DNA of 64,000 nt, taken from NCBI GenBank assembly GCA_035221665.1, contig CM069163.1, positions 22,754,001-22,818,000 on the forward strand, in the 5' to 3' direction. Positions 27,201 to 30,200 of this stretch are shown here, piece after piece; positions within the stretch are counted from its first letter, which is position 1, and the number at the start of each line of letters is the position of its first letter. Origin of the DNA: Okamejei kenojei. Taxonomy: Eukaryota. Position numbers and translations under genes: made by a program. A model generated the notes under the pieces. It did no database searches, was not told where the DNA came from, and worked only from the letters and a program-made list of their open reading frames with translations.

Positions 27201-30200
27201 TTCCAAATCCCTTTCCGAAGGTTACTATTGAATCTCTGTCCACGATCCTATTAGCCAATCTATATTGGAAAAATACACAATATAGATACATAAAACTACA
27301 ACACAGACTGGTCCTTCAGCGCATCTTTTAGTCACTTATGTTGGGGAAAAAAACAGTCATGCTGACCCTACCCTAGCTATTGACCCTCTGAAGCAGTGTC
27401 TCTTTTATTTACATTTGCTGGCCAGTCCTGGCACCCCAATAGAGAATTACATGGGTGCAGGCTACTTTGACATGGGAATCTGAGCCATGTTTGATTTTTG
27501 AACAAAATTAAGGATGCTGCTGTTGAATTAATTAACACAGAATTAATTAAACATCCCATTCCTGACATTTCAGTGATACAAAAACTACTCTGTGTATGAA
27601 AAGATTGCCTCTCAGATTCTTTTTAAATCTTTACCCTCTCTCCTTAAATTGATACCCTCTAATTCTTGATTTCCCCTACCCTGGGAAAAGTCTATTCATT
27701 GTTAACATTAATTCTAGATAGGATACTCATGGTTGTTGTTCTTTTGCAATAGTCTGTACTGGAAACGGGAAATAAGTTGTCCGATGATAATACGATTGGA
27801 AAGGATGAAATTCAGCAGAGACTGTCACAGTTTGTGGCACACTGGAAGGAGTTGAAGGAATTTGCAGCTGCTCGGTATGTTGGCTTTGTCCATCATGGCT
27901 TTCAAGGGCTGTGTTTTTGTTGAGTTGTGTTTTTATTAGCTTATTGCAGACATGGTTGGTGTGTGGAGGGTGCAAAAAATCTAAAATGCAGCAAACATAT
28001 TTTATATCTGTGGAGAGAATGAACAAATTCTTGTTTCAGACCAGGTCTTAAAAAAGGACCTATTTTATTCATACCATTTGTAATCACAGTGACTTACAGC
28101 CATTTGAAATGTCTCCATTGTCAGAGTGAGGCTAAATGCAAATTGGAGGAACAACATCTCATATTTTGTTTGGGCAGCTTTCAGTTCAGTGGTATGAATA
28201 TTGATTTCTCTAACTTCTGAGTAACCCCGACATTCCCCCTCTCTCCAAGTCTCCCCCACCCAAGTCTCACCAGCTTCTCGTTTTCATCCAACAAACAGCT
28301 AACAATAGCCTGTATATATCATCGTTACACTTTTGCATATCTTTCATTCATTGTTCTTTATCTCTCAACATCATCATCTATATCTCTCCATTCCCTTTAC
28401 CCTGACTAGTCTGAAGATGGGTCTCGACCCAAAATGTCACCCATTTCTTCTCTCCAGAGATGCTGCCTGCTTTTTATGTCTGCCTTTGGATTAAACCAGC
28501 ATCTGCTGTTCCTTCCTACACATTTGAAATGCCATCACTTCTCTGCAGCAGAAATGGAAGCATTTAGATAGGATCATGGGAAGAAAAACAAATTAACTAG
28601 TTCATAGACAAGGAACTAATTAAATATCTTATGAATGAAGATCATTAGTGCATTTTTTTATTCTCCCTGTTCCTTAAAATCTAGTAAGATGTTTCCTAAT
28701 TTTTCCATGCAGATCAGGATCAATAAAACTTGTATTTTATGAAAGTGATACTGAGAGCATGGACCTGGTGTATTGTTTTTATAAACACAAATATGTCAAA
28801 CTTTTTTATTGCAGAGGACAGCGTCTGGAAGAATCCTTGGAATACCAGCAGTTTGTGGCAAATGTTGAGGAAGAGGAGGCATGGATCAATGAGAAGTTGA
28901 ACTTGGTGGCAAGCGAGGATTATGGAGATACACTTGCTGCTGTACAGGTCAGTGTCTTCTGATTTGCCATTTTAACCCATTTGTTAATATTTGAATAGCA
29001 TCTGATGCAAGTTACGGTAAACCTCTGTCATATTGTCAGTGATACCATTTTAATTGTTCTGATAAGCAAGGCACAATGCTGAATCTGAAATGTTTATTGT
29101 TAACGAAGAAACTGCAGATGCTGGAGAATCGAGGGTTACACAAAAAGCTGGAGAAACTCAGCGGGTGCAGCAGCATCGAAGGAGCGAAGGAGATAGGCGA
29201 CGTTTCGGGTCGAGACCCTTCTGAAATGTTTATTTATCTGTATGGTGCTAACTTTCCCATCTCCTGCTCCCAGAGGATCCCTGGCACTTAACACCCATCA
29301 CCTGTCAAGCTGTAAAAAACAAAGTGGTGGAGGAACTCGTCGGGTCAGGCAACATTAGTGGAGGACATTAACGGACCGCTTTGCGTCGAGAACCCTCTTC
29401 AGACAGAAGTATCATCTGTCCATTCTCTCAATAGATGCTGCCTGACCCGCTGAGTTCCTCCAGCACTTTTGTTCAAGACTACAGCCTCTGCAGTTTGTTT
29501 TATCTCTACTTTCTACTGTCTGTTTCCAGTGCTGAATCTAGTTATTGTAGACTTGCTTTTAATTTTATTTCTCTCCGGTCTCCAAGGGATTGTTGAAAAA
29601 ACATGAAGCATTTGAAACTGATTTCACAGTTCACCGTGATCGAGTGCATGATGTTTGTACAAGTGGCGAGGAGTTGGTAAAGAAGGTAAGATGTTTTTAA
29701 AAATTAATTTGAATATGTTTTCTATTGTTAGTGGTTGTTTGGATTTTTGCTGTAATCTTTAATTGCGGACTGGGAAAACCCTCACTTTCTGTGCTCTGGC
29801 CTATTGATTTTTTTTGGACCCAAACCATCGCTTTCCACCGCCCCAACCCCGACTTTACTCTCTTGTTGCACTGCTACTACAAGATGCTGTAGTTGGGCAA
29901 GATTTTAACATTGCAGCCAGTCAAGAGCTGACTAACCAGTAGTTTATTGTAAACTGAATGTTTAGTACTGTTCAGGTATCGATTAGGAATGGGTCTTGTT
30001 TGATGTCTGAGTTTGCTTATTTTGAGCTCCAGATAACAGTAGCAAATAAATGTCCCGATTACACAGTGGATGCAATCTCATCACAAGGACTGAAGTGATT
30101 GTTGCCTGAGGGAAGCAAGGAATAGGTGATCGTGATCATTGTGGCTTTGCCTTTCTTGTTCACATGCTATGAACACATTTTTAAGAAGAATTAGGACAGC

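What the first reader, a model, noticed from the sequence alone, without database searches (positions are those of the whole stretch)
28405..28445. Dispersed repeat family whose consensus is a minimal type I hammerhead ribozyme
Seen: about nine copies of one unit (near 5657, 8640-8670, 15580, 28411, 29196-29222, 29390, 31890, 43880/43896, 63847). They align to (G/A)GT CTGAAGA A GGGTC-TC-GACCC GAAAC GTC (A/G)CC. This gives the hammerhead core CUGANGA, a helix II hairpin, GAAA, a self-complementary ACGU helix III, a GUC cleavage triplet, and a short GGU/ACC helix I. Known: Penelope-like elements carry minimal hammerheads with palindromic helix III that are proposed to cleave as dimers. Inference: this high-copy family in a probable skate/ray genome is a ribozyme-processed retroelement. 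No copy here is intact. 28411 has CpG-type changes (GAAAC to AAAAT), and 29196 keeps GACCCGAAACGTC but is truncated before CTGA.
Basis: partly seen in the sequence, partly recalled or inferred. Interest (0 to 1): 0.78.

Follow-up and report, generated by a model that had tools for sequence, protein, structure and literature searches.

The report
Penelope retrotransposon ends with hammerhead motif
The repeat is the short end piece of a known kind of jumping gene (Penelope-like) that carries an already-described minimal self-cutting RNA motif; all copies in this window are broken, and the one notable feature is that short copies begin at the front edge of the motif rather than at its cutting site, which likely marks where the element's RNA begins.

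Summary
The repeat is real: 12 arms at 9 places in the window, none with an intact core; 55,299 exact 27-nt cores genome-wide, control 0. It is the pseudo-LTR end of a Penelope-like element: two loci hold motif - intact 1,185-aa RT/Cys-linker/GIY-YIG ORF - motif, and the 28411 copy still carries the endonuclease tail and an 11-bp target duplication. The motif matches the published minimal hammerhead of such elements; helix I is mostly 2 bp and no two-sided covariation was found. 'Ribozyme-processed' is not supported by the copy ends: of 65 young non-inverted arms, 30 start at -8..+2 of the core and 0 at the cleavage site. Best reading (inferred): the RNA starts at an initiator-like sequence 3 nt before the core, and internally primed reverse transcription runs off that end, giving about 1.4 million stubs. 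Cleavage was not testable here. The scan has noted this family, and the sharp start, on other DNA before. New member of a known kind; low to moderate interest.

The parts
28101..28111 (.). Left target-site duplication (11 bp) of the 28411 insertion
   Evidence: Exact match to 28521-28531
28113..28220 (+). C-terminal remnant of the GIY-YIG endonuclease coding region, with stop codon
   Evidence: tblastn of the natural 1,185-aa ORF: 59% identity, E 8e-08; blastn 71% to L061; frame
28221..28407 (+). Pyrimidine-rich 3' UTR / upstream pLTR
   Evidence: 81% identity to L061 over 28225-28423, E 4e-47
28408..28441 (+). Minimal hammerhead motif, broken (G12>A at 28431, C15.2>T at 28435); core starts 28411, predicted cleavage after 28438; initiator-like YYANWYY at 28406-28412
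28442..28520 (+). Downstream pLTR (with an internal deletion) and 30-35-nt tail
   Evidence: aligned to +122 of the L061 unit; sequence
28521..28531 (.). Right target-site duplication
29099..29222 (-). Young stub, 5' end at about +4 (lacks C3-A6), with tail; 15-bp target duplication at 29084-29098 and 29220-29234
29317..29503 (.). Head-to-head inverted pair of arms, both with broken cores
5655..5775 (+). Old stub with broken core (C3, C15.2, U16.1 changed); short inverted remnant at 5637-5646
8580..8673 (-). Old stub with broken core (G12>A, A15.1>G, G16.2>A)
15517..15599 (-). Old stub with broken core
31357..32010 (+). Old long copy: GIY-YIG remnant (31357-31615), 3' UTR, broken motif at 31890, tail
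   Evidence: tblastn E 1e-10; sequence
43795..44009 (.). Head-to-head inverted pair joined at the 5' edge of the motif; both cores have G12>A; one arm has the tail
63764..63927 (.). Head-to-head inverted pair, cores deleted or truncated
28815..28948 (+). Host exon (alpha-spectrin); the 28411 and 29196 copies lie in the flanking introns
   Evidence: phmmer to PDB: spectrin alpha, erythrocytic 1, E 5e-43

Best explanation
The repeat is the hammerhead-bearing pseudo-LTR end of a Penelope-like retrotransposon with an RT, Cys-linker and GIY-YIG protein, and its many short copies likely arise when reverse transcription primed just downstream of the motif runs off the 5' end of the element's RNA. Shown: element anatomy (motif - 1,185-aa ORF - motif, 3,955 nt apart), target duplications, two 3' end clusters 33 nt apart, 5' ends piled at -4..-1, none at the cleavage site, all window copies broken. 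Inferred: (1) transcription starts at the A of an initiator-like YYANWYY, 3 nt before C3, which would also explain the 2-bp helix I; (2) the RT starts internally at +92 or +125, as shown for the anole element; (3) started at the 5' pLTR it reaches the RNA end after about 95 or 130 nt and is then joined to the target (stub), folds back on the short CAG/CTG palindrome (inverted pair), or transfers to the identical 3' pLTR and goes on (long and more-than-unit copies); (4) the RNA that gets copied is uncleaved; the motif would cut, if at all, only as a dimer through ACGU and probably with the element's protein, as a regulatory or side reaction. Identity as a Penelope pLTR: about 0.95. RNA 5'-end model for the stubs: about 0.5.
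For: Full elements at L061 and L062 (intact 1,185-aa ORF) and L064 (frameshifted) have the motif at both ends; Pfam RVT_1 E 5e-06 and GIY-YIG E 0.004, both under the curated cut-offs; DKG, YIDD and CX4CXXC motifs read; 1,011 homologues at E<=1e-20, many with RVT_1 and some with GIY-YIG. 100 young arms picked by a downstream 31-mer, blind to their 5' ends: 53 of 100 start at -7..+2, 1 of 100 between -150 and -8; after dropping 30 inverted arms and 5 of other subfamilies, 30 of 65 start at -8..+2, 0 of 65 at +26..+30. 3' ends: 61 of 100 at +89..+94, 29 of 100 at +122..+132 or just beyond, like the two RT start sites that bound the tail in PMC11167929. YYANWYY at -5..+1 in 5 of 6 hand-picked long copies whose upstream sequences differ. 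All 6 cluster consensuses (13-29% mean copy divergence) keep the catalytic core; changes fall in loop II or keep a pair (U-A/U-G) while +31..+48 varies. PMC11167929: uncleaved RNA is the main insertion substrate and no RNA-seq reads end at the cleavage site in the anole element.
Against: No RNA 5'-end data: only assembled contigs were available, the runs laid were of uncertain type, and no start or end sites were reported. A cap-derived extra G is not supported: among 3,580 copies with non-C at -4, the first 100 listed have A 43, G 36, T 21 (counted by hand), and only 1 of 10 distinct insertions with a target duplication has a single extra G. All 3 full-length copies run 401-803 nt past the internal motif in one insertion, which needs a template transfer under this model but nothing extra under a circle or read-through model. 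The 5' ends are spread over about 10 nt, not one base. The same bases also read as a splice acceptor (pyrimidine tract + CAG). Neptune assignment rests on the linker motif only; no tree was built.
Confidence: 0.7

Rival explanations
1. Circle model: both hammerheads of a transcript cleave as a dimer, the 3,955-nt unit is ligated to a circle, RT runs more than once round it (partial tandems), and stubs come from a roadblock just upstream of the motif.
For: Proposed in PMC4209133. 3 of 3 full-length copies are more than unit length, 2 of them with clear target duplications. The core is kept in all subfamily consensuses. A circle leaves no 5' ends at +28, so their absence does not exclude it.
Against: A circle has no 5' end, so the pile-up at -4..-1 needs a second, unexplained cause; a structural stall would be expected at the 3' side of the helices (+19..+30), where there is no peak. 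The hammerhead dimer is not the predicted fold: -6.7 kcal/mol against -19.7 for the best dimer in the young subfamily. Hammerhead mutants did not affect insertion in vitro in PMC11167929.
Confidence: 0.2
2. The edge is a 3' splice site or branch point (pyrimidine tract + CAG), as in Drosophila virilis Penelope where the intron ends at helix I; RT stops on spliced or lariat RNA.
For: Pyrimidine tract and YCAG directly before the motif in long copies of several subfamilies; precedent in PMC4209133 and PMC2377424.
Against: Stubs keep AG or CAG, i.e. would-be intron bases, and share no upstream exon. None of the 15 joints shown (464 more not shown) has GT..AG ends or lands on 2452. A branch-like CTRAC is missing from some subfamilies and lies too close to the AG in others.
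Confidence: 0.1
3. The pile-up is a DNA-level effect: the cDNA folds back or finds microhomology at the short CAG-N-CTG palindrome at -4..+2, whatever the RNA end is.
For: Perfect head-to-head joins centred at -1 exist (L192); 79 of 225 unbiased copies are in inverted pairs; filler bases at junctions often copy the flank.
Against: Non-inverted stubs with clean 9-25-bp target duplications pile at the same place; many inverted pairs are not joined through the palindrome.
Confidence: 0.12
4. The short units are an independent non-autonomous family (SINE or retrozyme) with their own master copies.
For: Stubs outnumber long copies (31 of 225 classed as long). Non-LTR retrozymes are reported from one chondrichthyan (bioRxiv 10.64898/2026.07.22.740005).
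Against: Stubs carry the same subfamily-diagnostic bases as long copies, have variable ends, and are not in tandem arrays (5 of 225 tandem); retrozymes have canonical hammerheads in tandem units (PMC7229834).
Confidence: 0.05

Closest known systems
Minimal hammerheads (min-HHR) of metazoan PLE pLTRs, incl. fish Xena, Poseidon, Neptune (Cervera and De la Pena 2014, PMC4209133; parts 1-2 of 4 read, 2 supplement files searched)
   Same: CUGANGA core, extra base between 9 and 10.1, G10.1-C11.1, palindromic 15.2-16.2 with no loop 3, position in both pLTRs, most copies single and truncated.
   Different: Helix I is 2 bp and helix II 4 bp (typical there: 4-5 and up to 7-8; a 2-bp helix I is described for D. 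virilis). One motif dominates (55,299 exact cores against about 4,000 and 9,000 motifs reported for coelacanth and Xenopus). No shark, skate or ray term in the 2 supplement files searched (file 1 not searched).
EN+ Penelope-like elements, Neptune/Nematis type (Craig et al. 2021, PMC8557442; passages)
   Same: Single ORF, RT with DKG, CX2-5CxxC linker, C-terminal GIY-YIG, partial tandems, inverted 5'-truncated copies, 30-40-bp tail at one end.
   Different: ORF is long (1,185 aa, Pro-rich N-half). Clade not fixed by phylogeny here.
PAc, Poseidon from Anolis carolinensis (Frangieh et al. 2024, PMC11167929; parts 1-2 of 4 read)
   Same: Two RT start sites bounding the tail downstream of the hammerhead; no ends at the cleavage site.
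   Different: There the ORF starts inside the hammerhead; here the ATG is 162 nt after C3. A pile-up of 5' ends at the motif's edge is not described in the parts read.
Non-LTR retrozymes (PMC7229834, passages; bioRxiv 10.64898/2026.07.22.740005, parts 1-2 of 5)
   Same: Non-coding, type I hammerhead, related to PLE pLTRs.
   Different: Those are tandem arrays (canonical hammerheads and circular RNAs in PMC7229834); these are dispersed 95-130-nt ends of a coding element.

Membership tests
EN+ Penelope-like element | Single ORF with PLE-type RT and C-terminal GIY-YIG | tested here: met
   1,185-aa ORF in L061 and L062; RVT_1 E 5e-06, GIY-YIG E 0.004, both under curated cut-offs; homologues with both domains
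EN+ Penelope-like element | pLTRs formed by partial tandem; inverted 5'-truncated copies; 30-40-bp tail | tested here: met
   5' pLTRs of 401-803 nt upstream of the motif in 3 of 3 full copies; 79 of 225 copies inverted; two 3' end clusters about 33 nt apart
Neptune clade | CX2-5CxxC linker between RT and EN | tested here: met
   C-X4-C-X2-C before the GIY-YIG domain; definition from PMC8557442; shared with Nematis
Neptune clade | RT phylogeny with reference Neptune elements | not tested
   No named PLE reference set was on hand
Minimal type I hammerhead of PLEs | Conserved core, extra base after A9, G10.1-C11.1, palindromic 15.2-16.2, NUH | tested here: met
   55,299 exact; 19 descriptor hits in 864 kb against 0 in each of 5 shuffles; met by master sequences, not by any window copy
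Minimal type I hammerhead of PLEs | Helix I of 4-5 bp | tested here: not met
   2 bp in 15 of 19, 3 bp in 3, 4 bp in 1; a 2-bp helix I is reported for D. virilis Penelope (PMC4209133)
Minimal type I hammerhead of PLEs | Compensatory changes in the helices | tested here: inconclusive
   Only one-sided compatible changes between subfamilies; 525 and 628 double variants genome-wide look like point mutants or passengers in another repeat
Minimal type I hammerhead of PLEs | Self-cleavage as a dimer or with protein | not testable with these tools
   Needs an in vitro assay
Non-LTR retrozyme | Tandem array of units, each with a hammerhead | tested here: not met
   5 of 225 copies have a direct neighbour; the rest are solo, inverted or long

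The most novel reading that the evidence does not exclude
The hammerhead is the first 34 nt of the element's capped RNA, and about 1.4 million stubs are prematurely integrated 'strong-stop' cDNAs: the -3..+92 stretch works like a retroviral R region for strand transfer, which would explain pLTRs, inverted pairs and stubs by one mechanism, with ribozyme cleavage acting as a decapping switch rather than the step that makes the template.
Probability: 0.3. Interest if true: 0.55.

Novelty: new member of a known kind. Interest (0 to 1): 0.27.

Why it matters
As a ribozyme find it is ordinary: minimal hammerheads in Penelope pLTRs are published, and the window copies are dead. Its value is as a test bed. 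The role of the hammerhead in Penelope elements is stated as unclear (PMC8557442), and this genome offers intact full-length copies, tens of thousands of near-identical insertions with target duplications, and sharp 5' and 3' end clusters. These make the RNA-start, strand-transfer and circle models directly testable by CAGE and in vitro TPRT. The ends alone cover about 4.9% of sampled DNA (39,360 of 800,000 bases).

Tried and rejected
Rfam scan of the window: no hammerhead family among 14 weak hits. Pfam and PDB on the RT fragment and the window remnant: nothing; PDB on the full ORF: nothing. Cap-G signature: not supported. Splicing into the motif: no GT..AG joint among those shown; contigs only, X3 probably DNA, so no statement on expression or RNA ends is possible. 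Cross-species variation of the motif was not obtained (second laying of reads gave no result). Helix II covariation: 525 double variants at pair 11/16, first 100 listed: C-G 43, G.G 29, A.G 17, other 11 (hand count), as expected from point mutation of a subfamily with G at +16; 628 double variants at pair 9/18 are dominated by a non-pairing A.A form, and 5 of 12 loci inspected share one flank, i.e. ride in another repeat. Folding: no z-score support for the motif or the downstream stem (z 0.12 and 0.65); an alternative hairpin competes with helix II. A-to-G editing scars: the 9 A>G changes in 57 young arms are mostly the subfamily base at +16. Lunse et al. (RNA Biol, dimers) is not held; cited only through PMC6765202. 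Literature searches for 'strong-stop' and 'template jump' with Penelope terms gave 0 papers; shark/skate searches gave nothing on this family (listings only); the library lacks most subscription papers and Repbase, so absence from print is not shown.

Full report
1. Observation. A profile built from 127 seed copies finds 415 arms in 864 kb (80 arbitrary 10-kb stretches plus the window), 12 of them in the window, and 0 in the reversed control. None of the 12 has an intact catalytic core: 28411 has G12>A and C15.2>T, the 29196 copy lacks C3-A6, the others have two or more changes or deletions. The 27-nt core occurs exactly 27,838 + 27,461 times in the 2.76-Gb genome, the reversed pattern 0 times. 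From 403 arms in 800 kb the genome holds about 1.4 million arms (bootstrap 1.16-1.62 million), covering 39,360 of 800,000 sampled bases. Numbering below: C3 of the core = 0, predicted cleavage between +27 and +28.

2. What it belongs to. Upstream of many exact copies lies the coding end of a GIY-YIG endonuclease and, further up, an RT. A search with an RT fragment gave 40,586 first-look candidates, 150 scored. Of 20 loci fetched for long open frames, two (L061, L062) hold motif - intact ORF - motif and a third (L064) the same layout with a frameshift. [quoted passage not shown] The closest named homologue by identity is a bamboo shark protein (70% over 76% of the region), in line with a cartilaginous fish; the species was not determined. 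By the definitions in PMC8557442 (passages) this is an EN+ Penelope-like element with the Neptune/Nematis linker; no tree was built. In the window, the 28411 copy spans about 28112-28520 between 11-bp target duplications and includes the last endonuclease codons and the 3' UTR; 31890 is a second long copy; 29196 is a stub between 15-bp duplications. The 28411 and 29196 copies flank an alpha-spectrin exon.

3. The motif. The master sequence has CUGAAGA, one extra A, a 4-bp helix II with a 4-nt loop, GAAA, the ACGU palindrome without a loop, and GUC or GUU. These are the features of the minimal hammerheads in PMC4209133 (parts 1-2 of 4). A strict descriptor finds 19 hits in 864 kb, 0 in each of 5 shuffles and 0 in the window; helix I is 2 bp in 15 of the 19. 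Of 57 young ungapped arms that reach C3, 37 are intact. Six clusters of 225 ungapped copies (190 of the 415 arms were dropped for gaps, truncation or stretch edges) all keep the core; differences lie in loop II or keep a pair, while +31..+48 varies freely. This fits selection on master elements but is one-sided. Two genome-wide searches for two-sided changes in helix II found no compensated lineage. ViennaRNA does not favour the hammerhead dimer (-6.7 against -19.7 kcal/mol for the young subfamily; -12.3 against -24.7 for a copy with 3-bp helix I), in keeping with the low activity reported for such motifs (PMC4209133) and the protein dependence in the anole element (PMC11167929, parts 1-2 of 4).

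4. The ends. I picked the first 100 matches (all on contig C1, first 4.4 Mb) of a 31-mer at +49..+79, which is blind to the 5' end (59,546 genome-wide). 3' ends cluster at +89..+94 (61 of 100) and from +122 on (34 of 100 at +120 or more), the two RT start sites that bound the tail in PMC11167929. 5' ends: 53 of 100 at -7..+2, 1 between -150 and -8, 22 further upstream. Leaving out 30 inverted arms and 5 arms with another subfamily's upstream, 30 of 65 start at -8..+2, 9 at +3..+25, 0 at +26..+30, 3 at +31..+48, 23 upstream of -8. Several such stubs have clean target duplications of 9-25 bp. The unbiased sample shows the same step: in 110 solo copies the element's base is present in 60-65% at -1..-3, 36% at -4 and at background by -5.

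5. Mechanism. An RT moving 3' to 5' would stall at the 3' side of a structure, not after passing it, so the simplest cause of ends at -4..-1 is an RNA that begins there (inference). The bases at -5..+1 fit the initiator consensus YYANWYY (consensus recalled, not from a call) with A at -3 in 5 of 6 hand-picked long copies with unlike upstream sequence; the A at -3 does not pair in helix I, so the ribozyme does not explain its conservation. Penelope has its start site and an internal promoter in the pLTR (PMC2377424, passages). With internal priming at the 5' pLTR the cDNA is 95 or 130 nt long when it reaches the RNA end; joining, fold-back or transfer to the 3' pLTR would give stubs, inverted pairs and long copies. 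Against: no cap-G signature; all 3 full copies continue 401-803 nt past the internal motif; and no RNA end data could be had, since only contigs were served. The circle, splice-site and fold-back rivals are listed with their odds.

6. Known and new. The class, the motif, the inverted pairs and the tail are all in print. I found no paper on this family in sharks or rays (listings, 2 supplement files, one further file not searched; supplements of the bioRxiv preprint were not seen and name the one chondrichthyan it sampled) and none on a strong-stop-like pile-up, but the library is partial. Within this scan, eight earlier notes describe the same family in this and other genomes, two of them the sharp start at the motif; my reading was written down before that look-up.

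7. Verdict. Real, correctly recognised as a Penelope minimal hammerhead, ordinary in kind, dead in this window. The usable part is the quantified end map and intact full-length copies, which allow a direct test of where the RNA starts and whether the ribozyme takes part in transposition. Interest 0.27; new member of a known kind.

Noticed in passing
window 27754-27874, 28815-28948, 31120-31282 (+): Exons of an alpha-spectrin gene; one exon matches erythroid alpha-spectrin best, the others were only seen as frames.
   Followed up: partly
L289-L291, L295, L296, L298 (e.g. G000:C1:7328515): A fold-back stub with a broken helix II is multiplied as a passenger inside another repeat with a shared downstream flank; the carrier element was not identified.
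   Followed up: partly
L162, L165, L167; L175, L177, L181, L189, L190: Identical stub insertions recur at several places with the same flanks, i.e. spread inside other repeats or duplications.
   Followed up: no
L248 (G000:C1:2482489), L251, L250: Stubs inserted into older copies of the same element, with target duplications, in line with the known preference of PLEs for their own pLTRs.
   Followed up: partly
window 11748-12125, 44263-44360, 57676-57773, 58900-59277, 61463-61823: A second abundant repeat family, 75-97% alike, probably LINE 3' ends (CR1-like, recalled).
   Followed up: no
window 40466-40639 and 42121-42290; 5192-5229 and 5387-5424: Inverted-repeat pairs (90 nt, 97%; 38 nt, 97%) that look like the ends of DNA transposons or MITEs.
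   Followed up: no
window 41372-41612, 45350-45683, 59850-59896: A third dispersed repeat family with CA/TA-rich interior; not identified.
   Followed up: no
window 54116-54162: A further, strongly decayed downstream arm of the same pLTR family, below the profile threshold.
   Followed up: no
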